From an uncultured Rikenella sp. (GTDB lineage Bacteria; Bacteroidota; Bacteroidia; Bacteroidales; Rikenellaceae), in contig NZ_CAJTMN010000002.1 in assembly GCF_910577125.1 (NCBI RefSeq), positions 7,227 through 71,226 of the forward strand: a stretch of DNA of 64,000 bases, in the 5' to 3' direction. Within the stretch, counting starts at the first letter, position 1, and the number at the start of each line of letters is the position of its first letter. Shown piece after piece: positions 13,823 to 56,606 of this stretch. The notes under the pieces are model-generated. The model did not search any database, was not told the DNA's origin, and was given only the letters and a program-made list of their open reading frames with translations. A program made the translations under genes and the position numbers.

Positions 13823-16800
13823 ATTTCCATTCAACTATTGTAGGATTGGGAGGCCCAGAAGCCGCCGCAGAAGCCGAAGTTTAAAAAATTTCCATTCAAC
13901 TATTGTAGGATTAGAAGAACGGCCGCCTGCTTCTCAACCTGAAAGAGGAGATATTTCAATTCAACTATTGTAAAGATTGGAAGCACCAGTATTTTATTAA
14001 CAATCCTCCGCATCCTGATTTCAATTCAACTATTGTAAGATTGGAAGAATCGGGGAAAGTCGCGACAGTAATCGACTGAAAGTCATTTCAATTCAACTAT
14101 TGTAAGATTGGAAGAGGCCTCCAGCAACGGAAACTCTTTGTATAAAATGATTTCAATTCAACTATTGTAAGATTGGAAGTTTTTCGTAAATGAGCATAAT
14201 GCCTGTATGTCGATTTAATTTCAATTCAACTATTGTAAGATTGGAAGGAACGAGACAAAGGACTAACATCCAAGTGATTGTCATTTCAATTCAACTATTG
14301 TAGGATTAGGAGTTGATTACCTGATTCAAAATTTGAGTACCAAGAGTACATTTCAATTCAACTATTGTAGGATTAGGAGAAAGACCAGCAGAACCAGCGA
14401 GAGGCTTAATACCCATTTCAATTCAACTATTGTAGGATTAGGAGGACGCTGTCGATTGTGGGCAAAGAGAACACCACAGCACATTTCAATTCAACTATTG
14501 TAGGATTAGGAGGAGAATAACGACATGAAACGAGAAATCAAATTCAGATTTCAATTCAACTATTGTAAGATTGGAAGGATCACCACGTCTTTTATCAAAT
14601 CGTCCATCCGAATTTCAATTCAACTATTGTAAGATTGGAAGGAGACCCGTTATGTTCAGGTTGTCGCTCCCTATCGATTTCAATTCAACTATTGTAGGAT
14701 TGGGAGTTGGGACAGCCTGCCCGGTTGGGGGCCATGTACGGAATTTCAATTCAACTATTGTAGGATTGGGAGTAGAGGTGCTGTTTGATAGAAAAGTGGA
14801 TATAGCCAATTTCAATTCAACTATTGTAGGATTGGGAGATACAGTTGCAGTAGCCGGTGTTGCAGAAACTGTCAGATTTCAATTCAACTATTGTAGGATT
14901 GGGAGAATCAACCCGTCTACCGCAGCGACGACGATTTTTATTTCAATTCAACTATTGTAGGATTGGGAGAATCAACCCGTCTACCGCAGCGACGACGATT
15001 TTTATTTCAATTCAACTATTGTAGGATTGGGAGCCGCCCCATCCAGCCGGGAGACACGCGAGGAGACAGCATTTCAATTCAACTATTGTAGGATTGGGAG
15101 GAACCCGGCTCCGCTGGTCAAAATCGGGAAAGAGTGATTTCAATTCAACTATTGTAGGATTGGGAGCTCTGCTGCCATCCTCCTCGTCCCGCAGCCGCAG
15201 AGGGAATTTCAATTCAACTATTGTAGGATTGGGAGGGCCATGTCCAAATCCGCTTCAAGAAACACCATCATTTCAATTCAACTATTGTAGGATTGGGAGG
15301 CCGATTCAGCTCTTCCATGTCCTCCCGCATCCAGATTTCAATTCAACTATTGTAGGATTGGGAGGCTGATGGCGCTTTGCTTTCCGGTCAAGGTGTAAAA
15401 TTTCAATTCAACTATTGTAGGATTGGGAGTGTCGACGAGAATAGCAACGAACACGATTACCGAAATTTCAATTCAACTATTGTAGGATTGGGAGTGAACA
15501 GCTTCGCGACAAACAAGACATTCACCACAATTTCAATTCAACTATTGTAGGATTGGGAGATCGGCGACTCGGTTGAGTTCCCCATCGAACAGCAATTTCA
15601 ATTCAACTATTGTAGGATTGGGAGTTCTCGCTTCGGCGATTGCGGCTTGTGTGAAAACAAATTTCAATTCAACTATTGTAGGATTGGGAGTTGGTTATCA
15701 CCAAATAAGGTTCCCCCCAAAGCAATTTCAATTCAACTATTGTAGGATTGGGAGGCCTCCGGGTTCGGGGCCTGTTCCGTCCCCTGCTCATTTCAATTCA
15801 ACTATTGTAGGATTGGGAGGATCCGCATTCATCACAATCACGAGCGAATCCAGATTTCAATTCAACTATTGTAGGATTGGGAGGAAGCCGATATGGCAGC
15901 TGCCAATTTGTTAGATTATCATTTCAATTCAACTATTGTAGGATTGGGAGTAAGTCAGTTGTTGCAGCGTCCGCATCAGATCCCAATTTCAATTCAACTA
16001 TTGTAGGATTGGGAGGCGGAAACTGATCGACGCCGGTCAGGGCCGCATCATTTCAATTCAACTATTGTAGGATTGGGAGGATCATCGACCCCAAAAATCT
16101 CTCGCAGATCAAGATTTCAATTCAACTATTGTAGGATTGGGAGTCCGCAATCCGAAGCGCATTCGGCAGGTAGTAGACATTTCAATTCAACTATTGTAGG
16201 ATTGGGAGACTACCATGTTGACGCCGAGTGGATTAAAACGAAGTTATTTCAATTCAACTATTGTAGGATTGGGAGTGTTTCAATTCCTTTGCTATGTCGC
16301 GGCATTTTGATTTCAATTCAACTATTGTAGGATTGGGAGCGGAGCGCGGCCTGCTACTGCTCAGCGAAGACGATAATTTCAATTCAACTATTGTAGGATT
16401 GGGAGGGTTCTCCGTGTCGAGCGTATGCAACGCGATTTCGAGATTTCAATTCAACTATTGTAGGATTGGGAGAACGCCCCCGTAGGTGTGCACTACACTC
16501 ATACGCATTTCAATTCAACTATTGTAGGATTGGGAGGGGTTTCGTTCGACACCTGCCGCGGGGCGGCTTCATTTCAATTCAACTATTGTAGGATTGGGAG
16601 CTCCGGTAGCCCCTTGTGGCCCCCGCGGCCCCGTCATTTCAATTCAACTATTGTAGGATTGGGAGTAGACGCGGCGGGCGAGGACCACGAGCTGCTCAAA
16701 TTTCAATTCAACTATTGTAGGATTGGGAGGCGCGGTCGGGCAAAGGAGCCATCGACCGTTCGTATTTCAATTCAACTATTGTAGGATTGGGAGTTCGGAA

Positions 16801-16994
16801 GAAGTCCTCGATCTCGACCTTCGATTTTTCCATTTCAATTCAACTATTGTAGGATTGGGAGACAGGGGTTGCGCACGGCTATTGATACCGAGACAGAAAT
16901 TTCAATTCAACTATTGTAGGATTGGGAGGGGAAGTTGCGATTGCCTCTTTGATTGTTCTCGCTTATTTCAATTCAACTATTGTAGGATTGGGAG
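13823..16994 (-). CRISPR. CRISPR array, 49 x 30-bp repeats and 48 spacers (34-39 bp), transcribed on the minus strand
   Basis: Plus-strand repeat is ATTTCAATTCAACTATTGTAGGATTGGGAG. Its reverse complement, CTCCCAATCCTACAATAGTTGAATTGAAAT, ends in ATTGAAAT, the class 1 8-nt 5'-handle. Degenerate repeats lie at the low-coordinate end and the cas genes at the high-coordinate end. Confidence 0.97.
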
Positions 16995-17204
16995 CCGTGA
17001 AAAACGGAGAATCAATACACTAAAAATCAAACGATTAGAAATGTACCAAACGTTTTTTCGGCATCCGAAAGTTGTCGACCTCCAATCCCGCGAAAACACA
17101 CGGGGATCGACAACTCCGGTAAATTATCTGATTTTCAACACGTCAAAGAACACGACGCGACACATCGCCCCACAGTACAGCAAGCCACACCCTCCGAACG
17201 ACAA
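16995..17204 (-). promoter_or_regulatory. CRISPR leader (between the cas2 stop and the first repeat)
   Basis: 210-bp non-coding, relatively AT-rich stretch next to the consensus-repeat end. Contains an 8-bp inverted repeat, GTTGTCGA (17071-17078) / TCGACAAC (17107-17114). Confidence 0.6.
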
Positions 17205-17468
17205 CTACAGGAAATTGTCCACCGACGCCCGTTCGCACCCTATAATCCGTTTGTCCAGCCACTTTTCGTTCCGGCTTTCGAAGATAATCAGGCTGTCCTC
17301 CTCCGGATCCATAATCTCCCTCGCCTGCAGCTCCAGCTCCCGCAGCTTCACCGCCGTGATCTCGCCCTCGAACACCGAGTTCTGAATCCACGACAAATAA
17401 CGCCGGCACAACTTCAACATCTTTCCCACCCGCTTCTCGCCGCAATCATAAACCAAAATCACATACAT
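17205..17468 (-). CDS. cas2: CRISPR-associated endoribonuclease Cas2
   Basis: MYVILVYDCGEKRVGK...VFEGEIT, a typical Cas2 ferredoxin-fold start. The ORF opens at 17483. Confidence 0.9.
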   Translation of the reverse strand: MYVILVYDCGEKRVGKMLKLCRRYLSWIQNSVFEGEITAVKLRELELQAREIMDPEEDSLIIFESRNEKWLDKRIIGCERASVDNFL

Positions 17469-17476
17469 CGCGCTCC

Positions 17477-18493
17477 CTACCAATACATTTTAAACGGTTT
17501 GTACTCCTCCATCCCTAACAAATGCTTCGTCAGTTTGTAACACTCCAGCCGGATCAGATACCGATAACTCACCTTCCGGCCCAATTTCCGATGCTGGATC
17601 GTCTCCAGGAAACGCTCCTCCAACGCCTTCACAAAAATCTCCCGACCCGACCGGTTCAACACGCACCGATTCAACGAGCGGTCAAAGTGTTTCTCCTGAA
17701 TCTGTCTTTTATTCAACACGTTGAATATCACACGATCCACGACAATCGGTTTGAAAATCTCCGAAATATCCAGCGAGAGCGAAAACCGACGTTCACCCGG
17801 CGAGTGCAGATAACTGATCGTCGGATTGAGTTGCGTCTGGTGGATCGCCCGCAAACATTGTGCATAACACATCATATTGCCGAACGAAATCAGAGCGTTC
17901 ACCTCGTTCTGCGGCGGCTGTTTCGTCCGGACACCCATCTCGAAATCATTCAGTATCAGATCGAAGGCCTGGTAATAGGCCTGTCGGATATTTCCCTCGA
18001 TTCCCATCAGCTCATCCACCGCACCGACCCGCGGAATCTGCGCCGCATGCCCCTCGATCGCCTCCATCATCGGCTGCGTATCCTTCCCGCGACGGTTGTA
18101 ATACTGCAAATTCTTGAGCATGTTGAAAGCCGCCCCCTCGATAAAGCGGCGCGCAATCTCCAGCCGCCGTTTCGGAGCCTGATAAGCGGCCGCCTGAGCC
18201 AGAATCATGCGCCCGGACAGCAACGAATCGCGCGGCATGAACGACCCGGTGTAATTTTCGTAATAGTCGAAAAAGTGAACCGCCACATCGTTCTGTCCCA
18301 GGAAATTGTAGAGCGAACTCGGCGCATCCAGCGAACCGAAGACGTAGAAATCCTCGGCTGTCTCCACCGGAATAAAGCGCGGCGTTCCCTCCCGCACCAC
18401 CCCCTCCTCGTCCGTCACCCGGGGCGTGAACTTCAGCGTATTGTCCTGCCGGGTCAGTACGCCCGGATTGAAGAGATAATAATTTCGTTTCAT
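17477..18493 (-). CDS. cas1: CRISPR-associated endonuclease Cas1
   Basis: 338-aa ORF between cas4 and cas2 with overlapping stops/starts. Typical Cas1 length and conserved-looking C-terminal alpha domain. Confidence 0.9.
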   Translation of the reverse strand: MKRNYYLFNPGVLTRQDNTLKFTPRVTDEEGVVREGTPRFIPVETAEDFYVFGSLDAPSSLYNFLGQNDVAVHFFDYYENYTGSFMPRDSLLSGRMILAQAAAYQAPKRRLEIARRFIEGAAFNMLKNLQYYNRRGKDTQPMMEAIEGHAAQIPRVGAVDELMGIEGNIRQAYYQAFDLILNDFEMGVRTKQPPQNEVNALISFGNMMCYAQCLRAIHQTQLNPTISYLHSPGERRFSLSLDISEIFKPIVVDRVIFNVLNKRQIQEKHFDRSLNRCVLNRSGREIFVKALEERFLETIQHRKLGRKVSYRYLIRLECYKLTKHLLGMEEYKPFKMYW

Positions 18494-19041
18494 AGCGAGT
18501 CCTCCCGATCCGAATCCTCTTCCGGAACCGTCTCACCGACATAACAGAAGTCGAAATAGCTGCATCGGCGACAAATCCCCTTCTGTTTCGGAGGAATCGG
18601 CGGACACTGCTCCGACTCGACGATCCGGTCGATCCGGCTCTCCATCTCGCCCAGCCGCGCCCGATCCTCGTCCGTCAGCTCCTCCAACTGCTCCGTATGG
18701 CGGATCGACGGATATTCCACCACCGCCCGCACCCCCGTTATCCCGATCTGTTCCAATACCAGCTGATAATATCTGACCTGCCAGATATGAGCCTCCTCCA
18801 TCCGGTCGGACAATTTGATCTCGTGAATCACCCCCTGCCGGGAGTCGTAAAAATCGATCTTCACCGGCCCCACCTCCAGCTCTTCGTACCGCCCCGGACG
18901 CGACGGATAGGCCGTCGCGTGCAGCAATTTCCCTTCGGCCACCCGTTCCGAGGTATGCTCCATACCCACCCCGCCCGCGTAAAGCCACAGTTTACGCGGG
19001 CAGACCAGCAGGTAATTGAAATGACCTCCGCCGTACTTCAT
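18490..19041 (-). CDS. cas4: Cas4 (RecB-like exonuclease with Fe-S cluster)
   Basis: N-terminal Cys in LVCPRKLWLY and C-terminal CRRCSYFDFC cysteine cluster. EIKLS nuclease motif. Confidence 0.9.
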   Translation of the reverse strand: MKYGGGHFNYLLVCPRKLWLYAGGVGMEHTSERVAEGKLLHATAYPSRPGRYEELEVGPVKIDFYDSRQGVIHEIKLSDRMEEAHIWQVRYYQLVLEQIGITGVRAVVEYPSIRHTEQLEELTDEDRARLGEMESRIDRIVESEQCPPIPPKQKGICRRCSYFDFCYVGETVPEEDSDREDSL

Positions 19042-19066
19042 ACGCCCTGGACAACCGTTCTCCGGC

Positions 19067-20134
19067 CTACTTCTGACGCTCGTAGTCGAATGCCTGCATC
19101 CGTTCGGTCAGATCGCGCTCCGCAGCCGCCAGCGCGTCGGCACTCTCGATTGAGGTGGCGAAGTAGCCGGCTGCCGGCAGCGTGACGAACACATCCGCTC
19201 CGACCGAATCGTCCACGATCGGCTTCGCTTTCGGACGGTCGCCCCCGTCGTCGATCAGCTTTGTCCGAATGGCACCGGCCAGCGTATTGGCATTGTCGCT
19301 GATCGCCACGGCCAGCGTCTCCATCAGGCTGAACGTCCGGGCCTGATTGGAGGTGATCCGCCAGTTCAGCAGCGCGTGCGCCAGAGCCGGAATCACCTCG
19401 TCGCGTTTCTCTTTCGGCATGACCAGACAGTGTCCGAACGTATTTTCGCTCTCGATCCACCCTTCGTTTTTCAACGCCTCGATCATCTCGGGCGTCAGCT
19501 CCGGTTCGTGCGGGTTGGTCGATACGCAAAAGAGCCTCCTGAGATCGATCGCCACGTCGAACACAAAGAGCCCGCTGGCCCGCCGGTTATCGGGAATCCA
19601 ATGGCGCCGGGGCAGCGTCCGGCAATTCTCGTTCAACCATTTGTCGATCTGCTCTCCGGTCATCGGCTCCTTCTGGCCCTCCATCCGGACGATCACCGGA
19701 TGGTTTTCCGGCCGGTCGCTCCGGTCGAAGGTCAGGTTCTCGGCCTCCATCTCCAGCCCGCCCAACAGCGGGTGCAGCGGCCGCATGGCCGAAATCGACA
19801 GCGGGCTGCGCCGCTTCACGGTATAGTTCTCCGACGCGGCCCGCATCCAGCCGCCGATCAGCTGATCCACATAGTGGGGATCGCACGGCGACCACGGCTC
19901 CTTATTGGTCATCTTGCCGGCCTTATTGATCTCGTAGTTGAACGTAATGGGCGCCATCGGGACATTCAACGCGTCGGTCAGCGCTTCCAGGACGGAACGT
20001 TTCACCTGTTGTCCGCTGGAGTAGGCCATCCGGCGGCCGAAAGTAGGATCGTAATAAGACTTCTGACCGTCCTGCACACAGAAAACGGTATGGTCGGCAT
20101 GGCGCAACACGCGCAGGTAGATATACGGATTCAT
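19067..20134 (-). CDS. cas7: Cas7-family Cascade backbone subunit
   Basis: 355-aa ORF. SSGQQVKRSVLEAL resembles the conserved Cas7/DevR/Csa2 N-terminal motif. Position next to the large subunit supports the call. Confidence 0.7.
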   Translation of the reverse strand: MNPYIYLRVLRHADHTVFCVQDGQKSYYDPTFGRRMAYSSGQQVKRSVLEALTDALNVPMAPITFNYEINKAGKMTNKEPWSPCDPHYVDQLIGGWMRAASENYTVKRRSPLSISAMRPLHPLLGGLEMEAENLTFDRSDRPENHPVIVRMEGQKEPMTGEQIDKWLNENCRTLPRRHWIPDNRRASGLFVFDVAIDLRRLFCVSTNPHEPELTPEMIEALKNEGWIESENTFGHCLVMPKEKRDEVIPALAHALLNWRITSNQARTFSLMETLAVAISDNANTLAGAIRTKLIDDGGDRPKAKPIVDDSVGADVFVTLPAAGYFATSIESADALAAAERDLTERMQAFDYERQK

Positions 20135-20166
20135 CGTTCTATAGGATTTTTATTGGTTTCTCTTTT

Positions 20167-21450
20167 TTACAACACGGCGTACTCGACCCGCAGCAGTCCG
20201 AGAAAATACGGCACATTATCGGCCGGCATATTCCCGTTGATCAGGGTGTAGACCTCGTATAGTTTCGAATGCTCGCCCAGCACACCGACCACCGGCAGAA
20301 TCGCATCGTTAAACGCCGTCCGGTGGCGGGCTTTCAGGAGATTCTCGATTTGATTTCCCCGATCGGTTTTCCCCTGTTTGCTTTCGAGCACATAAGTATG
20401 CAATTCCACAGCGAGTTCACGGGCAACTGTCCGCAAGTCTTCATTATTCAGCATAGCCAGTATCCAGGTTAAGTAGGTTTGAAAAGTGATTTTGTTCTGT
20501 TCGTCGTCCGGTTTGTATTTCAACGCCTTGCGGCCCTCCATAATCTCCCTCAGTCCTTTGGGTTCCATGGCCCGGATGCCGATGCTCCCCTGCTGACAGC
20601 ACCGTTCGAACCCCCAGGCCGTTCCGAAGAGGGCTTTCGCCTTTCGGGCCGACTCGATGCCGAACAGCCGGACGTATAAATCGATGGGGCGCACGATCTC
20701 CGGCAGTTCGAACGGGATAAATCCGATCGTCTCGTTGGTCTGTCCCGACTTCCAGATATATCCCATCAGCCGCTCCTGCGGGAAATGGCGGGCAATCTCC
20801 TGCAGAATATCCGCCCATCCCTCCGTTTCGAAGCCGACCGATACCCCTCCCGCCACCTTCTCGTGAGGCAGGAAATTATCGGTCGGATAGTCCGGATCGA
20901 ACTCCTCGCTGAAGCGATGCCGCACCCAGCAGCCGTTCCACGTCAAGGCCTTGTTTCCCTCGGCCCGCGAGACGCTGTTCAGCAGCTCCCGGTAATATTT
21001 CCACCCGTCGAAAACGGCAAGCAGAATCTCCGCCCGGTCGAACAGAATTGCCCAGCCGCCCGCCACACCGACACCCAACGCCGCCCCGATCCACGAGAGG
21101 TAGTAATCCTCCGGCTCCAGCGGCAGCACCATGTCGGTCACCTGTCCCGACGTCGTGCCCGTCATCCCTGCCGCCGGATAACCCAACGCCATACTGGCAT
21201 CCGCTTCCGTCTCCTCCCGGATCTTCCTGTGCAACTCGTCCAGCTTCTCTTTCCGCTGCGCGGCCGTGAAAGGCCGGTCTTTCTTCACCCCCTGCACAAA
21301 CGGCGAGTTGGTCGGCCACAACATATATTTCTCGTGGTCGAAAAAGAGCGGATGGAGCACCTCCGTAAAAAAGCGTTCCGCGTTGTAGTCCGTCCCCTCG
21401 CGGGCGTTGTACGCCTCCAGAAAGAGGCCTCCTATATACGATGTTATCAT
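20167..21450 (-). CDS. cas8: putative Cascade large subunit (Cas8-like, unclassified)
   Basis: 427-aa ORF between cas3 and cas7. No motif I can assign; the call is positional only. Confidence 0.45.
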   Translation of the reverse strand: MITSYIGGLFLEAYNAREGTDYNAERFFTEVLHPLFFDHEKYMLWPTNSPFVQGVKKDRPFTAAQRKEKLDELHRKIREETEADASMALGYPAAGMTGTTSGQVTDMVLPLEPEDYYLSWIGAALGVGVAGGWAILFDRAEILLAVFDGWKYYRELLNSVSRAEGNKALTWNGCWVRHRFSEEFDPDYPTDNFLPHEKVAGGVSVGFETEGWADILQEIARHFPQERLMGYIWKSGQTNETIGFIPFELPEIVRPIDLYVRLFGIESARKAKALFGTAWGFERCCQQGSIGIRAMEPKGLREIMEGRKALKYKPDDEQNKITFQTYLTWILAMLNNEDLRTVARELAVELHTYVLESKQGKTDRGNQIENLLKARHRTAFNDAILPVVGVLGEHSKLYEVYTLINGNMPADNVPYFLGLLRVEYAVL

Positions 21451-21459: not shown

Positions 21460-23120
21460 CTACAAAAAACGATTCGTCACATCCTCGAATTCCGGCCGGG
21501 CGAACTCGGACAAGAAACCCGTCTCCGGCGAATAAGCCCGATCCGGAACCACATACGGCTCGCTGCCACACTCCGGCAAACGGTTCAGGCCGCTATACCG
21601 CACCGTCCGGAAGGAGACCGGAATCTCCATCGCCAGCCGCTCCGCCGCCGACGCTGTCCGATACCGCCCGACATCACCCTCGACGATGCAGGCCACCGAA
21701 TCGACATTCAACTTCTCCCACAACACCGACTTCGCATGATGGATCAGCCCGCCGATGCACCACCGTCCGTCACGATAGGCCGCCAGAAAACCCAACTCCT
21801 CCGCCCGCGCCGGTATAGCCTCATAGAGCGCATCCAGCCTCTGCTGCACATCCCGCTCCCGAAAGAGGTCGCCGTCCGGCAACAGGTCGAAACTCCGCTC
21901 CAGCACAGCTTTGTCATAAGGCGCCGCATCCCGCACCCCGTCCGGAGGCGCCACCACATACACCGGCCGGAAGTTCCCCTGCGTTTCGGGCGTCCGCCGC
22001 CGGTTGATGCGTCCGAAACGCTGCACCAGCGCATCCAGCGGCGCACACTCGGTCACCATCACATCGAAACTGATGTCCAGACTGACCTCCACCACCTGCG
22101 TGGCCACCACGATACAGCCCTCGCCCGCCGGCAGCCGGTTCAGCTCCCCGACCAGCCTCTTTTCGAGTCCCGCCCGATCGCCCCGTTTAAAGCGGCTGTG
22201 AATCAGCATCACCGGCACCTCCGCCCCGTACTCCTCCGCCAGCCGGCTGTAAAGTTCCTGCGCCCGCGCCACCCGGTTGCAGACCGCCAGCACCTTTTCA
22301 CCCCGCTCCACCGCCTCCCGCACCACCGGCCCGGCCGCCTCCCAGTCCGCCAGTTTATAGACCCGGTGGCGGTCGAACGTATCCAGCACCTCCGCCGGCA
22401 ACCGCACCTCGCAAACCCGCTCCGGCCCACCCAGCAGAGCCAGCATCCGGTCATACAACGCCCGCGGCATCGTCGCCGTCCCCACATGCACACGACACCC
22501 GACCGAAAGCAGCACCTCTGCGATTTTCAGCACAATCGACTGGATTTCATCGCCGTACGTATGAATTTCATCCAAAATCACGTCACAACCCCGCAAATCG
22601 GCCAGCATCGCCTCGTATCCCTTGACTCCGAAGGCCACGGAAGCCATCTGGTGCGGCGTCATCACCTTGACCGCCGCTCCCGGATGCCGCTGCAGGATCC
22701 GTTCTTCCCACGCTCCGCCCTCGTCCCTCAGCATCGACGAGGCGTGCAACAGCCTCACGTCCGCTCCCGTTCCCTCCAGATCGTGCCGAATCCGATCGTA
22801 CATCGCATTGATCGAGGCCTGAAACGGCAGCGTATAGAAGACCCGTCCTCGACACCTGCGCAGCAGGAAATCGGTTTTGCCCGCCCCCGTAGGCGCCGTC
22901 ACCATTGTATGCGGCCTCGCATCCGCCGCATCCGTCAGGGAGAGCGGATACAGCTCGTTTCGCCGCGAAGCGTAATAGCTCAAATCCGGCACCCGGAAAA
23001 GCCGTCCGGCATCGATCCGCTCCGCCGCTCCCCCCTCCGCCAGCGCCGAGGCCATCCCGTCGGCCGCCATCAGAACGCCCCGCCAGAGCGACCACTCTTT
23101 CCGCCGCATCCGCTCCCGAC
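21460..23120 (-). pseudogene. cas3: cas3, 3' fragment: end of HD domain (motif V) plus SF2 helicase, cut off by prophage insertion
   Basis: ORF 21460-23109. LMAADGMASA (HD motif V), APTGAGKT (Walker A), ILDEIHTY (DEIH box), QRFGRINRR (motif VI). The frame stays open upstream to the CGAC junction at 23117-23120. Confidence 0.88.
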
Positions 23121-23237
23121 TAAGGGGGGAAAAACGAAAAGTACAAGGGGGAGGATAGAAGAAAAAGACAGTAATGACAAATATATAAGAGAGTTACAAG
23201 AGAGCAGCAGGCGATAGGTTGAATAAACGAAAAGTAT
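23121..23237 (+). repeat. prophage left end (attL) with two putative transposase-binding repeats
   Basis: Terminus is TAAGGGGGGAAAAACGAAAAGTAC. The ACGAAAAGTAC core lies at 23134-23144, and a second copy, ACGAAAAGTAT, at 23227-23237. The same core occurs inverted at the right end. Confidence 0.7.
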
Positions 23238-23698
23238 AATTCGGTATAATTTCAGTATCATTCAGGGCGGCAAAATGGCCGCCTTTTTTGTTGCTTATAT
23301 AACCGACATTCCTAAACTCATATCGAAAGTATGATTTTCTTTCAAAAAACGCGCGCCGCGGTGACATCATAATATACAGCAACCCCAATAGCGGCGCAAA
23401 ATAGCACTCTTTTTACCCCTCGCCTCCAACTCTGCCACAATGACAAAAACAAGGCTCCAAAACGGGCGATTTTATCGCCTCTTTACCACCCTTTGAAGCC
23501 CATTTGACACCCTGCCGATTCCAGTCCGATTTTTTCAAAAATTGGAGTTGGTATTGCAGATGCTATTGCAGTTGCTATTGCAAATTCGGTCAAAAATATA
23601 CCGACTGAAAGGGGGATAGTGCCGAAAAAGTAAAGCTAAAAGGGTGTTTCCGAGGGATAGGCAGGGGGATAATACCGTCTGTTTGACCGAGTGTAAGC

Positions 23699-23731
23699 AT
23701 AAAAATGCGACAAAGTATTGATATGTCGCAT
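23699..23731 (-). terminator. rho-independent terminator downstream of the repressor gene
   Basis: 8-bp stem ATGCGACA (23705-23712) / TGTCGCAT (23724-23731), followed on the minus strand by TTTTT. Confidence 0.5.
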
Positions 23732-23763
23732 TATAGCAGAATAAAACAGATGTGTGCGCCGGT

Positions 23764-24597
23764 TTAGCTGTCTTTTCCCACTTTTTGAACGAGTTTGCCG
23801 ACAACGGTCGAAAGGTCGGAAATCTGTTTTTTCATCGTCTGCATCTCGTTCGCCATGCCGATCGGATCGGACGGTTCGCCGAGCGTTCGTACCAAGAAGA
23901 GTTCGACTGCCCAAATGGCGAAAATCTCCTCTTCCGGCAGCGAGATCGGCTTGTATAGCCGCTGGTCGGCATTGTCGGACAGCAGGGTAATTGTACCGTT
24001 ATGATGCAGTTTGTTTTCGATCCTCTTAATGAACGTACTCCCCTCTCGATTCGTTACGACATAAATCTCCTGGTTGCGTACGTGTTCCCACTCGCTCTCG
24101 TGCAGCCGTCGCACAATAACCCGACTATTATTATAGAGAGTCGGCGACATGGAATCTCCTACGACCTTAATACACAGCCGATCGGCCCGTCCACGCAACA
24201 TTCCTTTCGGTAAATAAATCATTTGCGACCGGTCCATGTACTCCGCATTCGAAGCACCGAACCCCGCGGCAGCTTCCATTTCGACAACCGGGACAGCGGT
24301 ATGATCGTCCGAAGGTGGTTCCATTTGCACAGCTGTAGACTTCGGAATGAGCGTTGGTGCCGGTCCTTCGCTTTTTAACATTTCACCCTGGCCGGTAAAG
24401 AACCATTCGGGATTTACATCGGAATAATACGAGAGAAATTTAATCGTATTATCTTCAGACAAACCATTGGGTTGAGTCAAAATGCCGTTCGATATACCAC
24501 AAGTTTTATAACATTGGTATTTTGTAATACCCTTGTATTCAAGGTATTCCAAAATACGAGCTTTTAGAATCGAAAAATCTCTCTTATTTATTTGCAT
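23764..24597 (-). CDS. phage repressor, HTH + S24 (LexA/CI-like) autopeptidase domain
   Basis: 277-aa ORF. N-terminal HTH (ITKYQCYKTCGISNGILTQ) and C-terminal VVGDSMSPTL...FIKRI Ser/Lys dyad. Leftward orientation next to the left end, as for Mu c. Confidence 0.85.
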   Translation of the reverse strand: MQINKRDFSILKARILEYLEYKGITKYQCYKTCGISNGILTQPNGLSEDNTIKFLSYYSDVNPEWFFTGQGEMLKSEGPAPTLIPKSTAVQMEPPSDDHTAVPVVEMEAAAGFGASNAEYMDRSQMIYLPKGMLRGRADRLCIKVVGDSMSPTLYNNSRVIVRRLHESEWEHVRNQEIYVVTNREGSTFIKRIENKLHHNGTITLLSDNADQRLYKPISLPEEEIFAIWAVELFLVRTLGEPSDPIGMANEMQTMKKQISDLSTVVGKLVQKVGKDS

Positions 24598-25170: not shown

Positions 25171-27120
25171 ATGGAATATTTAGGTAACATACTCTGCATT
25201 ACAGGCGGCGAGCTGATCCTCTCGGATAAAAATCCGAACGGGGTGATGCCTGTCGGCACTTATACGGCACTGGCCCACCGTGGAAAAATGCGCGTTCTGC
25301 GCCGTGCCTGTTATGGCAGTCCGGCACTGGTGGAGTATGACAGTCTGCCGGTGCGCTACCGCGAGGCGTGGGAGGCCCGGCACGGAGACCCGCATGCCCG
25401 GAGGAAGTTTGCCCCGTTCGCCGAACGGTTGCGCGAGGATACCGAAGCCTACAACGTCTTCACGGCCTACACCTACGACGGCGGGCGGAAGCTCCCGGAC
25501 GAGGCGATTGTCAGTTACTGCAACGACGCGATGATTCTGAACGCCGTTCGGGAAACACTGGAAGTGATGACGGCGGCACGCAAGGCTGCCCGGCTGTCGA
25601 TGGCCGGGCGTTGGGAAAAGATACTGAAACTGGTGGACGGCATTCGGGCCGACTACCCGAACAACCTGCCGAAAACGGCCATCACCCTCAAACGAAAATA
25701 CCAGCGGTACCAGGCCGAAGGGTATACGGCCCTGATTCACGCCGGATTCGGCAACCGGAACCGCGCCAAGGTCAAAGACCGGGTAGATCGGGCTGTCCTG
25801 CTCGACATCCTCAGCCACGGCAACCAGCTGCCCGCCACCGTCGCGGCCGAGACCTACAACCTCTGGGCAGCCTCGCACCGAGCGCCGACCATCACCCCGC
25901 GAACGGTACTCAACTACATGACCGAACATGCCGTGGAGATCGATGTCTCGCGCCGCGGCTCCAAGGCGTGGGCCGACGAGTTCGACCCGATCGTGCACCG
26001 TATTCGGCCGACCGCTCCGCTGCTGTTGGTCAATTCGGACGACAACGACCTCGATCTCTACTTCAAAAACGGGCGGGACAACTACTATCGTTTCAAACTA
26101 TACGTCGTATTGGATGCCCACTGCGATTACATCCTGGGCTATGCGTTCGGCGACCAGGTGACCAACGAATTGATTCGGGAAGCCTACCGCAACGCTATGC
26201 GCCACATCCGCGAACTGACCGGCGGATACTACCTCTGGCACCAGACGGTGGCCGACCGTTGGGGGCTGAGGTCGGACAACCTGCTCGGCTTTTTCGAGTC
26301 GCTGGCCACGTTCACCCCACCGACCGCCGGACTGGCCCGTGCGAAAGTGATCGAACGGTCATTCGGCACCGAGTGGCACAACGCCCTGAAACATTACAAC
26401 AACTACGCGGGCCACAACATTACGGCACGCGAGAAACACAACAGCGATTTCGCACAGACCAATCTCAAACGGAGACCGTCGATCGCGGAGGCTCCGGCGC
26501 TGATCGCCCGATTCATCGCCTCGATGCGGACACTGGAATGGAAAGGGAGCGGCCGGTCACGCGAGCAAGTGTGGCTCGATGGTTTTCGAGCAATGGGGGC
26601 CGACCGGGCGAAACGGATCTCCGAAGAGGTCTATCTGCAACGCTTCGGCCATCGGCACGAGTACAAAAACACGGTGCGAAACAGCGGCATCACGGTGACG
26701 ATCGGCGAGATACGCCGCACGTACGACGTGCCGGAGACAATCTATCGGCAGGCGGTCGGCCGAAAAGTCCGGATCACGTACGACCCGGCAGACCTCTCGC
26801 GGGTGCTGGTCGAGGGCGACCGGTTACGTTTCATCGCCCCGGAGAACGTGCCGCTGCCGATGGCTCTGGCCGACATGCAGCCGGGCGATCGTGAACGACT
26901 GAACGCCGTGCTGGAGCGCAAAAAACGACTCCGCGACCAGAACCGGCAATCGCGCGAAGAGCGGCGCGCGCTCCTGGAACGGATCGGAACCGATGCGCAG
27001 AGCCTCTTGCAGGCCGGAGTAATGGTCAAGGAGGCCCGTTTCGGGGCATCGGAGATCGTCAATCGGCTGACACTGAACGACGACCATGTGGACGGAGGAT
27101 CGATCCGGAGAAAATATTAA
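25171..27120 (+). CDS. MuA-like DDE transposase
   Basis: 649-aa ORF. rve-type core with candidate D (LLLVNSDDNDLD), D (VVLDAHCDYILGY) and E (IERSFGTEWH). Followed by a MuB-like ATPase. Confidence 0.85.
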   Translation: MEYLGNILCITGGELILSDKNPNGVMPVGTYTALAHRGKMRVLRRACYGSPALVEYDSLPVRYREAWEARHGDPHARRKFAPFAERLREDTEAYNVFTAYTYDGGRKLPDEAIVSYCNDAMILNAVRETLEVMTAARKAARLSMAGRWEKILKLVDGIRADYPNNLPKTAITLKRKYQRYQAEGYTALIHAGFGNRNRAKVKDRVDRAVLLDILSHGNQLPATVAAETYNLWAASHRAPTITPRTVLNYMTEHAVEIDVSRRGSKAWADEFDPIVHRIRPTAPLLLVNSDDNDLDLYFKNGRDNYYRFKLYVVLDAHCDYILGYAFGDQVTNELIREAYRNAMRHIRELTGGYYLWHQTVADRWGLRSDNLLGFFESLATFTPPTAGLARAKVIERSFGTEWHNALKHYNNYAGHNITAREKHNSDFAQTNLKRRPSIAEAPALIARFIASMRTLEWKGSGRSREQVWLDGFRAMGADRAKRISEEVYLQRFGHRHEYKNTVRNSGITVTIGEIRRTYDVPETIYRQAVGRKVRITYDPADLSRVLVEGDRLRFIAPENVPLPMALADMQPGDRERLNAVLERKKRLRDQNRQSREERRALLERIGTDAQSLLQAGVMVKEARFGASEIVNRLTLNDDHVDGGSIRRKY

Positions 27121-27138: not shown

Positions 27139-28026
27139 ATGATGACGAAAGAACAGAAACAGGAGATTCGAGACCGCCTGGAACGTTATACGGAACAGGT
27201 CGGCGGACAGAACCAGGCGGCAGCTATCCTCGCCGGGGTGAGTGCCGGAACGATTTCCCAAATTCTGAACGGCAAATGGGAACGGATCGCCGAGAAAATG
27301 TGGCTGAACCTCAGTGGCCAACTGTGGGATTATGCCTCCGACACGAGTGGCGGCGAGGAGTGGCATGGCGTTTCGACACGGCCCTACAACGAGTTGATGA
27401 CCACGTTCGAGGATGCCCGGCGTAGGTCCATGGCGATGGCGATCGTTGCGGACGCCGGGACAGGCAAAAGCTACACCGCTCGACGCTATGCGGCCGAAAA
27501 CGGTAGCCTGGTATTCTGTGTAACCTGTAAGGAGGGGTGGAAACTCAAAGCCTTCCTGAAAGAGGTACTGCGGGTGCTTGGCAAGAGTTCGGCTGCGTCG
27601 GATAACGACAACGAGGCGATGTACGCCGTAGTGGTCGAGACGTTGCGACGGAAGGCTCGCCCGGCCCTGATAATCGACGAGGCCGACAAGCTGCACAACG
27701 AGGTATTCCTGAAATTTATCGATTTGTTCAACGACCTCGAAGACCGGTGTGCGTTGGTGCTGATGGCGACCGACTACCTGGAGATGCGGCTGACGAACGG
27801 AGCGAAACGAGGGTATCGCGGGTATCGCGAAATCTTCTCGCGGGTCGGGAACCGTTGCGTCCGCATCCACCGGGCCGATGCGGCAGACGTGCGGGCGATC
27901 TGTCAGGCAAACGGCATCACGGATGCGGCCGAGGTGGCGGAAATTACGAACGACGCGGAGGGCGATCTGCGTCGGGTGAAACGGTCGATCATAGCTCTCC
28001 AGTTAGACAATGGCGCGCGCGGTTAA
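27139..28026 (+). CDS. MuB-like AAA+ transposition ATPase
   Basis: 295-aa ORF. N-terminal HTH (AAAILAGVSAGTISQILNGKWE), Walker A ADAGTGKSY, Walker B LIIDEADKL. Confidence 0.8.
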   Translation: MMTKEQKQEIRDRLERYTEQVGGQNQAAAILAGVSAGTISQILNGKWERIAEKMWLNLSGQLWDYASDTSGGEEWHGVSTRPYNELMTTFEDARRRSMAMAIVADAGTGKSYTARRYAAENGSLVFCVTCKEGWKLKAFLKEVLRVLGKSSAASDNDNEAMYAVVVETLRRKARPALIIDEADKLHNEVFLKFIDLFNDLEDRCALVLMATDYLEMRLTNGAKRGYRGYREIFSRVGNRCVRIHRADAADVRAICQANGITDAAEVAEITNDAEGDLRRVKRSIIALQLDNGARG

Positions 28027-30749: not shown

Positions 30750-31250
30750 ATGAAGACCTACCGTGATAGCCTGCTGGCTAAGTTGCACATTCTACTGAAA
30801 GAACAGGGCGTGGACGAAGAGACCAAACGAGCCATGTACGCCGGATATGGCGTCGATAGTACGGCCGATCTGACCGCGCCGCAACTGCGGCACTTGGTCG
30901 GTTCGTTAGCTGGCGAAGCGGTTCCGGAGGTCGCCCCGAGGCAGGTGTCGAACGAGACCCGCCGCCTGCGGTCGCAGTGCCTCGCGCTGATGACAAAGAG
31001 TCCCGACCCGGCGAACATCAAACTGCGCGGCCTCGGACTGCCGAACGACTGGGCGGTGTTGAACGCTTTCGTCGAACACCACGCCGGGGCCACGCTGAAC
31101 CGGCTGACCGACGAGGAACTGGAACGATTCGCCCGCAAGCTCCGCGCCATGCGTTCCTCCGGCTGGTTCTATAATGCTCCACGGCAGACGACCGCCTCTC
31201 CTGCTGCGGTGGTTGTGCTGGCCCCGACCGACTGCGGTACCGTAAACTAA
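30750..31250 (+). CDS. GemA/gp16-like (DUF1018) regulatory protein; carries the protospacer for spacer 42
   Basis: 166-aa ORF. Mu gemA position and the typical ...AMYAGYGVDSTADLTAPQLRHLV segment. Confidence 0.55.
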   Translation: MKTYRDSLLAKLHILLKEQGVDEETKRAMYAGYGVDSTADLTAPQLRHLVGSLAGEAVPEVAPRQVSNETRRLRSQCLALMTKSPDPANIKLRGLGLPNDWAVLNAFVEHHAGATLNRLTDEELERFARKLRAMRSSGWFYNAPRQTTASPAAVVVLAPTDCGTVN

Positions 31251-54659: not shown

Positions 54660-55201
54660 CGACAATAAGCCACCGCCATCTCGTATCCCTCCCGCGCCTG
54701 TTCCAACGAGTACGGAGTCCGTGCCGCCTCCGGCCCAATCAGACCGACCTCGCGCATAATCCCGCACGCCTCCGCACGCCAGGTGTCAAATCCGGCGCTA
54801 TGTATCTCGAACGACTTTTCATTGCCGTCCAAATCCAGCAGCCCCAACTCCCGCGCATCCTTCTTGACCGATTTATGGTGCGCCGCCACCATCTCGACCA
54901 CCGGGCCCCGCCACGCCTCGGGCAATAACGGCAGAAAAAAGAGCGAAGCGATCTCGTGCCGGAAAATCGTCCCCTCCGGCCTCGTCCCCCGCAGCCGCCG
55001 CTGGAAAACCGGCGACGCTTTTCCCACATCGTGCAGCAGCGCTCCCGCCGCAGCCACCTCCTCGTCGACCCCTGTCGCCGCTGCCACCCGGCGGGCAAAA
55101 AGAGCCGTCTGCCGCAAATGATCGGTCAGCGGCAACCCCTGCCCCTCGCCCGGCCGTGGCGTTTTCGCCCAGATATGATCGTATGCCCCCATGATCCGCA
55201 C
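54660..55201 (-). pseudogene. cas3: cas3, 5' fragment: HD nuclease domain motifs I-IV, truncated by prophage insertion
   Basis: ORF 54575-55201. LTDHL, LLHDVGK, RHEIAS and AAHHKS motifs. After ...MAVAYCR the frame reads into the phage end (IIGKTKSADFSERKV...) and stops. Confidence 0.88.
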
Positions 55202-55207: not shown

Positions 55208-55804
55208 CTAATCCACATCATACGTCGGCGCCTGTATCGGATTGCCGGCCACCTCCAGCCGGCCGTACATCATTTCGTGCGCCTCGCTGAAACGGTTGAA
55301 TCCCACCGGAAAGACTCCCCGTTCCCCTTTCTCGCCGAACCGCAGCTCGTAGCCCGGCAAAGCGTCGAACTCCGCGGGCGACATCATCCGCACCTCCCGT
55401 TCCGGCAGCAGGATATCCTCGTTCCGACAGAGGCAGATATGCTGTTCCGCCGCCCGTTCCGCCTCTCCGGCCGAAGCGAAAGCCAGCGTCAGAACCGGCG
55501 ACTGCAAGACACCCCGATTCAGGATCGACCGCGGCCGCGCCATCCGCTTCTGCTTCGGAAAGTGCTCCCACCCCCGCGGCTGAATCTGCTCCTGCTGCAC
55601 GCTGAACCCCGCATAGGTCAGTTTATGCCGCAGAATCGCATCGACCTCCAGCCGCTGCCGGATCCCCTCCACAATCGACGGCGTCAGAAACTGCTGGCTG
55701 TACGTCTTGGAGTCGCGCACCGCAAACCACGGCTTGATAAAACCGAACGTCCCCCGATAAGTCACCGTATAATACGACTGTTCCATAACCATTCCCCTGA
55801 ACAA
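55208..55804 (-). CDS. cas5: Cas5-family protein
   Basis: 198-aa ORF. GTFGFIKPWFAVRDSKTYSQQFLTPSIVEGI follows the Cas5 N-terminal pattern (FxxP...SY...TPSxxxGI). Confidence 0.6.
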   Translation of the reverse strand: MFRGMVMEQSYYTVTYRGTFGFIKPWFAVRDSKTYSQQFLTPSIVEGIRQRLEVDAILRHKLTYAGFSVQQEQIQPRGWEHFPKQKRMARPRSILNRGVLQSPVLTLAFASAGEAERAAEQHICLCRNEDILLPEREVRMMSPAEFDALPGYELRFGEKGERGVFPVGFNRFSEAHEMMYGRLEVAGNPIQAPTYDVD

Positions 55805-55805
55805 A

Positions 55806-56606
55806 TTACATCGCGCCGATAAACCCGAAGCCCAATGACCCCTTCTCGCCCAACCCGCAATCGCCGGCCAGGTCGAGCAGCTCCGGCGAACACCTCAACC
55901 GGAAGGCATAGCTATACCCGACGACTCCGGTCTCCTGCGGCGTAAACCGTTTAATCGCAATCCTTTTCTTTCGCACCGCGCCGCACACCTCGAAATCGAA
56001 ATCCATCGCCCCTTCGTAGTCCTTGCCGTAGAAAAAGCGGTATTTCTGACAGAGGTTGTTCCTCAACGCCTCGGCCATCCCCTCCGCCTCCGGAGCGAGG
56101 TAATCCGCATGCCCCGTCTGCGGATTCTTCCGCGAGACGCACACCGGCGACAACGTCCGGAACACCCCTTCGGCCCACCCCTCGTCGCTCACAGCCACCG
56201 TTTGAGACAAGGGCGGCAGAATCGTCAGGTCGGTCACCCGGAAAGCGACACCCGACACCCGGTCGCCCACCTCCAGCACCTGATCGGCAAAAGCCCCTTT
56301 GACGAAAGCCGCCGTACTGCGCTCCGGCAGGAAAGAGAGGTAAAACGTCGCCCGGTCTCCCTCGATATGCAACCGATCCGCCTCCACCGAGAACCGGGGA
56401 GTCCGGATATTCGAAAAGCAGAACAACTTCATCCGCTTTCCACCCCGCTCGTCGTCCGTAAAGCCATTGTCGTGCAGCCACGCCGCATATTCGGCATCGC
56501 TCCGGCTCATACACCGGTAGAGAGCCGCCGCCAGCTCATACTGATAATTGAGCGGCAGCACCCGCCCCGACGCCCGGTCTATCCGCAGCTCTATCCTGAA
56601 ACGCAT
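55806..56606 (-). CDS. cas6: Cas6 crRNA endoribonuclease
   Basis: 266-aa ORF. C-terminal glycine-rich loop GLGEKGSLGFGF typical of Cas6. Confidence 0.8.
   Translation of the reverse strand: MRFRIELRIDRASGRVLPLNYQYELAAALYRCMSRSDAEYAAWLHDNGFTDDERGGKRMKLFCFSNIRTPRFSVEADRLHIEGDRATFYLSFLPERSTAAFVKGAFADQVLEVGDRVSGVAFRVTDLTILPPLSQTVAVSDEGWAEGVFRTLSPVCVSRKNPQTGHADYLAPEAEGMAEALRNNLCQKYRFFYGKDYEGAMDFDFEVCGAVRKKRIAIKRFTPQETGVVGYSYAFRLRCSPELLDLAGDCGLGEKGSLGFGFIGAM

What the first reader, a model, noticed from the sequence alone, without database searches (positions are those of the whole stretch)
16537..16570. Leader-proximal spacer matches the resident prophage at 30/34 nt
The reverse complement of spacer 42 (7th from the leader) is GAAGCCGCCCCGCGGCAGGTGTCGAACGAAACCC. 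Prophage positions 30927-30960, inside the GemA-like gene, read GAGGTCGCCCCGAGGCAGGTGTCGAACGAGACCC. That is 30/34 identity, with mismatches at spacer positions 3, 5, 13 and 30. The array therefore records an encounter with this phage lineage, and a member of that lineage now sits inside cas3. I found this by eye, comparing six-frame spacer peptides with the prophage proteins (EAAPRQVSNET against EVAPRQVSNET). The search was not exhaustive, so other matches may exist.
Basis: seen in the sequence. Interest (0 to 1): 0.85.

Follow-up and report, generated by a model that had tools for sequence, protein, structure and literature searches.

The report
CRISPR spacer matching prophage inside cas3
A mouse-gut Rikenella-like bacterium carries a CRISPR memory of a Mu-like phage family, and a diverged member of that family now sits as a prophage in the middle of the system's own cas3 gene; this is a clean natural example of a phage–CRISPR conflict already known from laboratory work, not a new kind of system.

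Summary
Spacer 42 (16537-16570, 7th from the leader) matches window 30927-30960 at 30/34, with mismatches at positions 3, 5, 13 and 30. The chance expectation is about 4e-7. No other spacer of the 48 matches the prophage.

The match is homology, not chance:
- It lies in frame in a GemA-like gene, and 3 of the 4 differences are synonymous.
- The 5' flank is CCG, which fits the CCN PAM reported for Bacteroides type I-B.
- Five related Mu-like phage lineages from metagenomes carry the same site at 29-33/34.

The best match is 33/34 (L001/L002). No perfect match was found.

The system is type I-B. The 31.5-kb prophage (23121-54659) splits cas3 at the boundary between the HD and helicase domains. 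Removing it, together with one copy of a 4-bp duplication (CGAC), restores a 732-aa reading frame. That frame aligns without gaps, at 93% identity, to an uninterrupted Cas3 in a syntenic, prophage-free locus.

Sibling contigs from at least three data sets carry the same insertion and an unchanged array.

The closest precedent is Pseudomonas PA14 with phage DMS3. I judge this a new member of a known kind, of moderate interest. A causal link between the spacer and the cas3 insertion is plausible but unproven.

The parts
13823..16994 (-). CRISPR array: 49 repeats of 30 nt (crRNA sense CTCCCAATCCTACAATAGTTGAATTGAAAT) and 48 spacers. Degenerate repeats lie at the low-coordinate (trailer) end.
16537..16570 (-). 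Spacer 42, 7th from the leader. In crRNA sense it reads GAAGCCGCCCCGCGGCAGGTGTCGAACGAAACCC.
16995..17204 (-). Leader between cas2 and the first repeat. It is conserved in the related intact locus L010.
17205..21450 (-). Type I-B genes downstream of the insertion: cas2 (17205-17483), cas1 (17477-18493), cas4 (18490-19041), cas7b (19067-20134), cas8b (20167-21450).
21460..23120 (-). cas3 helicase fragment. The ORF starts at ATG 23109, which corresponds to M184 of the restored protein. It matches Cas3b profile positions 169-689.
23117..23120 (.). Left copy of the 4-bp target-site duplication (CGAC).
   Evidence: by comparison with the empty site in L010
23121..54659 (+). Mu-like transposable prophage, 31.5 kb. 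It encodes an S24 repressor (23764-24597, - strand), a transposase (25171-27120), a MuB-like ATPase (27139-28026), a Mu portal/F fusion, a protease, a capsid protein and tail genes. ACGAAAAGT repeats lie inverted at both ends.
30750..31250 (+). GemA-like gene that contains the protospacer.
30924..30926 (+). 5' flank CCG, the putative PAM (CCN). It is conserved in all five phage lineages.
   Evidence: PMC9367070
30927..30960 (+). Protospacer, 30/34 identical to spacer 42, with mismatches at 3, 5, 13 and 30.
54660..54663 (.). Right copy of the target-site duplication (CGAC).
54664..55201 (-). cas3 HD-nuclease fragment. The ORF 54575-55201 runs on for about 27 codons into the phage end. It matches Cas3b profile positions 2-172.
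55208..56606 (-). cas5b (55208-55804) and cas6b (55806-56606), upstream of the insertion.

Best explanation
Spacer 42 is a genuine immune memory. A type I-B adaptation machinery (Cas1-Cas2-Cas4) took it from the GemA-like gene of a Mu-like transposable phage of this Rikenella-associated lineage, next to a 5'-CCG PAM. The donor was not the resident prophage but a close relative; the nearest sampled one is 33/34 identical. The resident prophage is a diverged variant with four mismatches, two of them (positions 3 and 5) at the PAM-proximal end where type I systems need a seed match. Direct interference would therefore have been weak or absent even with an intact system. Such degenerate targets typically still provoke Cas3-dependent priming or low-level self-damage. 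The prophage transposed into cas3 with a 4-bp duplication, separating the HD nuclease domain from the helicase domain and moving cas8-cas7-cas4-cas1-cas2 31.5 kb away from the start of the operon. This most likely abolishes interference and priming, so spacer and prophage now coexist. Shown here: the match and its homology, the PAM flank, the subtype, the exact insertion and the restored cas3 frame, diverse insertion sites of related phages, and an unchanged array in sibling contigs. Inferred: loss of Cas3 function, the seed effect, and (at about even odds) that lysogens with the phage in cas3 were favoured because this removes the CRISPR-prophage conflict, as opposed to a chance insertion.
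For: - The match is 30/34 and unique among the 48 spacers; chance expectation is about 4e-7.
- It is in frame, and 3 of 4 differences are synonymous.
- Related phages carry the site at 33/34 (L001/L002), 31/34 (L005-9), 30/34 (L020-24) and 29/34 (L025-28). All have the CCG flank. The GAA first codon of the spacer occurs in the L025-28 lineage, so every spacer base is seen somewhere in the phage population.
- The Bacteroides fragilis type I-B PAM is G at +2 and +3 downstream in that paper's orientation, which equals 5'-CCN (PMC9367070).
- Type I-B assignment: Cas8b 2e-147, Cas7b 2e-176, Cas5b and Cas6b. The two Cas3b fragments abut at profile positions 169-172.
- The spliced Cas3 is gapless and 93% identical to intact P0030 in a syntenic locus without the prophage. 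The empty site is CTTATTGTCGGGAGCGG.
- The phage left end TAAGGGGGG... is shared by four lineages inserted at four different host sites.
- Transposase, MuB-like, Mu portal, Mu F and gp36 hits, and inverted end repeats.
- No frameshift or stop in either cas3 half. dN/dS against L010 is 0.15 in both halves, like cas6 at 0.14, so the insertion is recent relative to that divergence.
- Sibling contigs from several data sets have the same insertion and identical leader-proximal spacers, with none derived from the prophage.
- Laboratory precedent: PA14 lysogens of the Mu-like phage DMS3, which have an imperfect spacer match, resolve autoimmunity by spacer seed mutations, cas frameshifts and phage-transposition-mediated deletions, one of which starts in cas3 (PMC11406979).
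Against: - No perfect protospacer was found in IMG/VR, JGI metagenomes, GTDB genomes, INPHARED or the Logan/ENA contigs reached through homologues.
- Only one spacer in 48 comes from this lineage, so there is no sign of a sustained conflict or of priming.
- The PAM rests on a single protospacer family plus analogy to B. fragilis.
- The insertion lies at the HD/helicase boundary and leaves two intact ORFs. Because split Cas3''/Cas3' systems exist naturally, loss of function is not proven.
- Mu-like phages insert almost anywhere, and this window was picked because it looked interesting, so the cas3 hit could be coincidence.
- No direct ancestor (identical strain with intact cas3 and spacer 42) was found; the nearest intact locus is 93% identical and its array was not assembled.
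Confidence: 0.82

Rival explanations
1. Coincidence of two real but unrelated events. The spacer is an old memory of a related phage. Independently, a quasi-randomly transposing Mu-like phage happened to land in cas3. Spacer 42 played no selective role.
For: Related phages are inserted at four different host sites. The two seed-region mismatches probably make spacer 42 ineffective anyway. Only one of 48 spacers targets the lineage. The window was selected for looking interesting.
Against: cas3 is about 2.2 kb. Assuming a genome of a few Mb (the genome size was not measured here), the prior for a random hit is under 0.1%. Exactly this kind of conflict with an imperfect match drives CRISPR loss in PA14/DMS3 lysogens (PMC11406979). 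The lineage with the cas3 insertion persists across several data sets.
Confidence: 0.4
2. The spacer was acquired from the resident prophage itself after lysogeny (self-acquisition), and the four differences arose afterwards.
For: Self-targeting spacers against resident prophages are common (PMC7708048).
Against: Four changes in 34 nt would imply about 12% divergence, yet both cas3 halves remain free of any frameshift or stop. A different phage matches better (33/34), and the spacer's variants at positions 5, 13 and 30 are exactly those of that phage.
Confidence: 0.03
3. The system is not dead. The insertion at the domain boundary produces separate Cas3'' (HD) and Cas3' (helicase) proteins, as in naturally split systems. 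The outward-reading prophage repressor transcript drives cas3'-cas8-cas7-cas4-cas1-cas2. The prophage is tolerated only because of its seed mismatches.
For: Both fragments are intact ORFs, and the helicase fragment starts at an in-frame ATG 11 nt from the junction. The repressor gene 23764-24597 is co-oriented with the cas genes, and no minus-strand terminator was detected between them. All other cas genes are intact.
Against: The HD fragment carries a tail of about 27 foreign residues. Fused Cas3 proteins are not known to tolerate this cut. An active type I system facing a degenerate target with a good PAM would be expected to prime, yet no prophage-derived spacers and no new spacers at all are seen in any sibling contig. 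The promoter scan is not valid for Bacteroidota promoters.
Confidence: 0.1
4. The 30/34 match is a chance similarity in GC-rich coding DNA.
For: None beyond the GC-rich composition of the spacer.
Against: Expectation about 4e-7. Shuffles reach at most 24/34. The synonymous substitution pattern and the graded matches in five phage lineages also argue against chance.
Confidence: 0.001

Closest known systems
Pseudomonas aeruginosa PA14 CRISPR2 spacer 1 versus the Mu-like phage DMS3 (type I-F). Non-identity targeting: Cady & O'Toole 2011, cited in PMC7708048. Resolution of the conflict in lysogens: Suttenfield et al. 2024, PMC11406979.
   Same: A transposable Mu-like prophage; a type I system; a resident spacer with an imperfect match (5 mismatches there, 4 here); and a conflict resolved by loss of CRISPR function, in part through the phage's own transposition, with one deletion starting in cas3.
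   Different: Here the host is a Bacteroidota gut bacterium with type I-B. The resolution, if it is one, is a simple insertion of the prophage into cas3 with a target duplication and no deletion. It is seen in natural metagenomes rather than in experimental evolution. No phenotype or autoimmunity has been demonstrated.
Self-targeting spacers associated with prophages (Nobrega et al. 2020, PMC7708048; Stern et al. 2010, cited there)
   Same: A spacer matching a prophage in the same genome. Type I-B is among the subtypes most prone to this. Tolerance is usually explained by a damaged target, PAM or cas genes.
   Different: At 88% identity this match falls just below that survey's cut-off of more than 90%. 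The spacer was not taken from the resident copy. There is no amplification of self-targeting spacers by priming.
Prophage integration into CRISPR repeats in Streptococcus pyogenes (Varble et al. 2021; recalled from memory, not read here)
   Same: A temperate phage whose integration physically disables the CRISPR-Cas locus that could target it.
   Different: That case is site-specific integration into type II-A repeats by an integrase with an attB mimic. Here a DDE transposase inserts with little site specificity, and there is no evidence that this phage family prefers cas loci (four other insertion sites).
Targeting of temperate phages drives loss of type I CRISPR-Cas systems (Rollie et al. 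2020; recalled from memory and cited in PMC11406979)
   Same: Imperfectly targeted temperate Mu-like phages make CRISPR-Cas costly and select for its loss.
   Different: That was a laboratory result with large deletions. This is a natural single-gene disruption by the prophage itself.

Membership tests
Type I-B CRISPR-Cas | Signature large subunit Cas8b together with Cas7b, Cas5b and Cas6b | tested here: met
   PADLOC: Cas8b 2.1e-147, Cas7b 2.1e-176, Cas5b 5.3e-78, Cas6b 2.7e-59
Type I-B CRISPR-Cas | Cas3 with an HD nuclease and a superfamily 2 (SF2) helicase | tested here: met
   Both domains are present but on two fragments separated by the prophage. Cas3b profile positions 2-172 and 169-689. 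The spliced protein is gapless against intact P0030.
Type I-B CRISPR-Cas | Adaptation module cas4-cas1-cas2 next to a leader and array | tested here: met
Type I-B CRISPR-Cas | The system is active in interference | not testable with these tools
   cas3 is split. The array is unchanged in sibling contigs, which is consistent with inactivity but does not prove it.
Genuine protospacer of a type I system | Similarity far above chance and explained by homology | tested here: met
   E about 4e-7. Three of four mismatches are synonymous. Matches are graded across five phage lineages.
Genuine protospacer of a type I system | A permissive PAM 5' of the protospacer on the strand identical to the crRNA spacer | tested here: inconclusive
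   CCG in all lineages fits the CCN inferred for B. fragilis I-B (PMC9367070). However, no second protospacer of this array was found to derive the PAM independently.
Genuine protospacer of a type I system | A perfect match in the donor element | tested here: not met
   The best match found is 33/34. The degenerate pattern gave 0 hits in the viral, genome and metagenome collections.
Self-targeting spacer in the sense of Nobrega et al. 2020 | More than 90% identity to the same genome outside the array | tested here: not met
   30/34 is 88.2%; the definition is in PMC7708048.
Mu-like transposable phage | A MuA-type DDE transposase and a MuB-type AAA+ partner near the left end, downstream of a divergently transcribed repressor | tested here: met
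   phrog_310 1.6e-54 and Mu-transpos_C; phrog_296 1.5e-55 and Phage-MuB_C; S24 repressor on the opposite strand
Mu-like transposable phage | Insertion at many different host sites, with inverted ends carrying repeated transposase-binding motifs | tested here: met
   Four different left flanks in four lineages. ACGAAAAGT occurs twice at each end in inverted orientation, 0.44 expected.
Mu-like transposable phage | A 5-bp target-site duplication and 5'-TG...CA-3' ends, as in Mu | tested here: not met
   Comparison with the empty site gives a 4-bp duplication (CGAC) and TA...TA ends. This is a difference from Mu itself, not from transposable phages in general.
Mu-like transposable phage | Mu-type head genes (portal gp29, F, gp36) | tested here: met
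   Portal_Mu 1.4e-66 and Phage_Mu_F 1.6e-14; Phage_Mu_Gp36 in the gene table of L003
GemA (Pfam PF06252) | Score at or above the Pfam gathering threshold | tested here: inconclusive
   The window protein scores 25.6 bits against a cut-off of 27. Homologues P0002, P0009, P0010, P0011 and P0015 carry a precomputed PF06252 hit.

The most novel reading that the evidence does not exclude
The insertion rewires the system rather than killing it. The cut falls exactly between the HD and helicase domains and leaves two intact ORFs. The lysogen's repressor promoter reads outward into cas3'-cas8-cas7-cas4-cas1-cas2. The prophage would then control a still-assembling Cascade. That Cascade, loaded with crRNA 42, could bind without cleaving, or cleave only near-perfect targets such as the 33/34 relative. 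Either way it would help silence the resident phage or exclude superinfecting relatives, amounting to a phage-domesticated CRISPR system.
Probability: 0.06. Interest if true: 0.8.

Novelty: new member of a known kind. Interest (0 to 1): 0.42.

Why it matters
This is a well-resolved natural counterpart, from mouse-gut Bacteroidota, of a process shown experimentally only in Pseudomonas. An imperfectly targeted, transposable temperate phage and a type I CRISPR system cannot stably coexist, and the phage's own transposition can end the conflict. Here one event, insertion into cas3, would both establish lysogeny and disarm the immune system. The locus also supplies useful material: a dated-looking recent cas3 knockout with all other parts intact, a candidate PAM (CCG/CCN), and a panel of natural protospacer variants (29-33/34) for testing seed rules in a Bacteroidales type I-B system. 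It does not reveal a new mechanism.

Tried and rejected
- **Perfect match.** The degenerate pattern GARGYNGCNCCNMGNCARGTNTCNAAYGARAC covers the spacer and all synonymous variants. It gave 0 hits in IMG/VR, GTDB genomes and JGI metagenomes.
- **GemA-like gene.** Sensitive blastn of the gene against INPHARED found nothing.
- **All spacers against phage records.** The 47 distinct spacers, concatenated, gave no match against INPHARED. An independent PAM logo was therefore impossible.
- **Repeat scans.** Scans of GTDB genomes and JGI metagenomes for sibling arrays returned nothing.
- **Spacer-side seed mutation.** I considered whether the A at spacer position 3 (G in the first four phage lineages) was a mutation in the spacer, like the seed mutations seen in PA14 lysogens. 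I rejected this as unnecessary, because the L025-L028 lineage has GAA at that codon.
- **Other spacers in the relatives' late regions.** I looked in L032-L037 and found none.
- **Direct ancestor.** I looked for one through contigs encoding the identical Cas8b. All those that reach the junction carry the insertion.
- **Anti-CRISPR genes.** I considered the slot between the protease and capsid genes that Pseudomonas Mu-like phages use for them. Here the two genes are only about 20 bp apart (ORFs 37971-39116 and 39138-40172), so I did not pursue it.
- **Promoter scan.** The sigma-70 scan is not informative for Bacteroidota promoters. I use it only for the absence of a minus-strand terminator.
Full report
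**1. The observation**

The window carries a CRISPR array of 49 repeats and 48 spacers at 13823-16994. On the + strand the repeat reads ATTTCAATTCAACTATTGTAGGATTGGGAG.

Four lines of evidence say the array is read on the minus strand with the leader at 16995-17204:
- Degenerate repeat variants are confined to the low-coordinate end.
- An AT-rich stretch of about 210 nt separates the last perfect repeat from cas2.
- That stretch is conserved in a related locus.
- In that orientation the repeat ends in ATTGAAAT. From my own knowledge, this is the usual 8-nt handle of Cas6-processed crRNAs.

Spacer 42 (16537-16570) is therefore the 7th from the leader. In crRNA sense it reads GAAGCCGCCCCGCGGCAGGTGTCGAACGAAACCC. 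Window 30927-30960 on the + strand reads GAGGTCGCCCCGAGGCAGGTGTCGAACGAGACCC. That is 30/34, with mismatches at 3, 5, 13 and 30, exactly as reported.

**2. Chance is excluded and the search is now exhaustive**

- BLASTN-short of all 48 spacers against the window, with the array masked, returns only this pair (27/29 local, E 3e-7). The next best hit is a 15-mer.
- In an ungapped scan of both strands, every other spacer peaks at 24/35 or less.
- 300 shuffles of spacer 42 peak at 24/34.
- The binomial expectation for 30/34 or better over all trials is about 4e-7.
- No other spacer matches the prophage.

**3. The match is homology under protein-coding constraint**

The protospacer lies in frame in ORF 30750-31250. 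This ORF hits Pfam GemA at 25.6 bits (cut-off 27) and phrog_286. Several of its homologues carry a precomputed GemA hit.

Position by position:

| Spacer position | Spacer / prophage codon | Effect |
|---|---|---|
| 3 | GAA / GAG | Glu, synonymous |
| 13 | CGG / AGG | Arg, synonymous |
| 30 | GAA / GAG | Glu, synonymous |
| 5 | GCC / GTC | Ala / Val |

The N-terminal half of the target falls in a variable linker of the protein family. The VSNET half is conserved.

**4. Related phages**

The protein database names the source 'uncultured Rikenella sp.', and the samples are mouse-gut metagenomes. I reached the DNA of five lineages of the same Mu-like phage through homologues of the GemA-like protein:

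| Loci | Match to spacer 42 | Peptide |
|---|---|---|
| L001/L002 | 33/34 (only position 3 differs) | EAAPRQVSNET, same as the spacer |
| L005-L009 | 31/34 | – |
| L020-L024 | 30/34 | – |
| L003/L004 (the resident prophage itself, in other samples) | 30/34 | – |
| L025-L028 | 29/34 | – |

- All lineages keep the 5' flank GTTCCG.
- The L025-L028 lineage has GAA at the first codon, so every base of the spacer occurs somewhere in the phage population. An unsampled or recombinant perfect donor is therefore plausible.
- No perfect match was found. A degenerate pattern covering the spacer gave 0 hits in IMG/VR, GTDB genomes and JGI metagenomes. INPHARED gave nothing for the gene or for the 47 distinct spacers.
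- No other spacer matches about 300 kb of related phage DNA, including the late regions.

**5. The CRISPR-Cas system and the PAM**

PADLOC profiles identify type I-B:
- Cas6b (55806-56606)
- Cas5b (55208-55804)
- Cas3b, in two pieces
- Cas8b (20167-21450)
- Cas7b (19067-20134)
- Cas4, Cas1 and Cas2

All are on the minus strand.

For Bacteroides fragilis type I-B, a survey inferred G at downstream positions 2 and 3 in its orientation. This is 5'-CCN on the spacer-identical strand (PMC9367070). CCG at 30924-30926 fits. Because this rests on analogy and a single protospacer family, I rate the PAM test inconclusive rather than met.

From established knowledge of type I systems (my own knowledge, not tested here), PAM-proximal positions 1-5 and 7-8 form the seed. 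Positions 3 and 5 are mismatched in the resident prophage, and position 3 in L001. Direct interference against the resident variant would probably have failed, while priming would be expected from an intact system.

**6. The prophage is inside cas3**

- The HD fragment (ORF 54575-55201) matches Cas3b profile positions 2-172. The helicase fragment (21460-23109) matches positions 169-689.
- Joining 23120 to 54664 gives an open 732-aa frame.
- That frame aligns to an uninterrupted 729-aa Cas3 (P0030) at 93% identity with no gap.
- P0030 lies in a syntenic locus without a prophage (L010-L019): hemerythrin, EamA, cas6, cas5, cas3, cas8, cas7, cas4, cas1, cas2, leader, first repeat.
- The empty site CTTATTGTCGGGAGCGG shows a 4-bp duplication (CGAC at 23117-23120 and 54660-54663) and places the prophage at 23121-54659.
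- The left end TAAGGGGGGAAAAACGAAAAGT is shared by four lineages with four different host flanks.
- ACGAAAAGT occurs twice at each end in inverted orientation.

With a MuA-like transposase, a MuB-like ATPase, a divergent S24 repressor and Mu-type portal, F and gp36 genes, this is a Mu-like transposable phage. It differs from Mu in its 4-bp duplication and TA ends.

**7. Age and state**

- Neither cas3 half has a stop or frameshift.
- dN/dS against L010 is 0.15 in both halves. This is similar to cas6 (0.14) and above cas8, cas7, cas4 and cas1 (0.03-0.08). The insertion is therefore recent relative to that divergence.
- Contigs from several data sets (DRR014734, DRR014785, GCA_948572245.1) carry the identical junction. 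Together with ERZ777305, whose contig does not reach the junction, they carry arrays with identical leader-proximal spacers 48 to 42.
- So there are no new acquisitions and no prophage-derived spacers.

**8. Mechanism**

Most likely the spacer was taken from a close relative of the resident phage. A diverged variant later infected the host, escaping direct interference through its seed mismatches. The surviving lysogenic lineage is one in which the phage transposed into cas3, removing the nuclease-helicase needed for interference and priming. Whether that site was selected for or hit by chance cannot be decided from sequence.

In favour of selection:
- The target is tiny: about 2.2 kb, against an assumed genome size of a few Mb that was not measured here.
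- There is a direct laboratory precedent. PA14 lysogens of the Mu-like phage DMS3 have a 5-mismatch spacer. They resolve autoimmunity by spacer seed mutations, cas frameshifts and transposition-mediated deletions, one beginning in cas3 (PMC11406979).

Against selection:
- The phage family inserts at diverse sites.
- Only one spacer is involved.
- The window was chosen because it looked interesting.

A minority alternative is that the cut, which lies exactly at the domain boundary with two intact ORFs and an outward-reading repressor gene, leaves a working split Cas3''/Cas3' system.

**9. Comparison and verdict**

Self-targeting spacers against prophages are common. About 19% of CRISPR-bearing genomes have at least one, 63% of these are prophage-linked, and type I-B is over-represented (PMC7708048). 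At 88% identity this match falls just under that survey's definition.

The closest system is PA14/DMS3. This case is a new natural member of that known kind, in a different phylum and subtype, and it is resolved unusually cleanly. Interest is moderate.

Noticed in passing
window 14906-14939 and 14970-15003: Spacers 17 and 18 are identical, a tandem duplicate of one repeat-spacer unit. Sibling contig L029 has one copy, while L030 and L031 have two. This is either real polymorphism or assembly collapse.
   Followed up: partly
window 13823-14641: The trailer-end repeats fall into blocks of distinct variants (...GATTAGGAG, ...AAGATTGGAAG, and ATTTCC... at the very end). The repeat at 13953 is shifted by one base. 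This may reflect an old array fusion or decay.
   Followed up: no
window 23117-23120, 54660-54663, and prophage ends 23121 / 54659: The target-site duplication is 4 bp (CGAC) and the phage ends are TA...TA. Mu has a 5-bp duplication and TG...CA ends. The ACGAAAAGT motif occurs twice at each end in inverted orientation.
   Followed up: yes
window 32992-37893 (- strand): The head-assembly module is inverted relative to the early genes and to the protease, capsid and tail genes. It comprises a small terminase-like HTH protein, a 508-aa large-terminase-like protein, a gp36-like protein, and a portal fused to Mu F and a C-terminal PBECR2 nuclease-like domain. The same layout is seen in all relatives.
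   Followed up: partly
window 29735-30737; L005 7768-9990; L021 8160-10004: There is a variable cargo slot just upstream of the GemA-like gene. The window has a Dam-like methyltransferase plus a nucleoside 2-deoxyribosyltransferase-like protein. Relatives carry Dam plus a C5 methylase plus a MazG-like protein, or a radical-SAM-like protein. These are probably DNA-modification or anti-restriction genes.
   Followed up: no
window 23121-24597: The S24-type repressor gene (23764-24597, minus strand) reads outward through the left phage end into the cas3 helicase fragment and cas8-cas2. Only a plus-strand terminator (23264-23285) lies between them. In L003 and L029 (sample DRR014734) the repressor is called as 128 aa instead of 277 aa.
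   Followed up: partly
L032-L034 and L010-L019 (SRR18038xxx samples): Late-region contigs of a related phage (about 79% nucleotide identity) come from the same sequencing project, and in one case the same sample (SRR18038140), as the host lineage with intact cas3. These samples would be the place to look for active targeting.
   Followed up: no
L010 16651-16680: The intact-cas3 lineage has a repeat differing by one base (CTCCCAATCTTAC... against CTCCCAATCCTAC...). All its contigs break at the first repeat, so its spacers remain unknown.
   Followed up: partly
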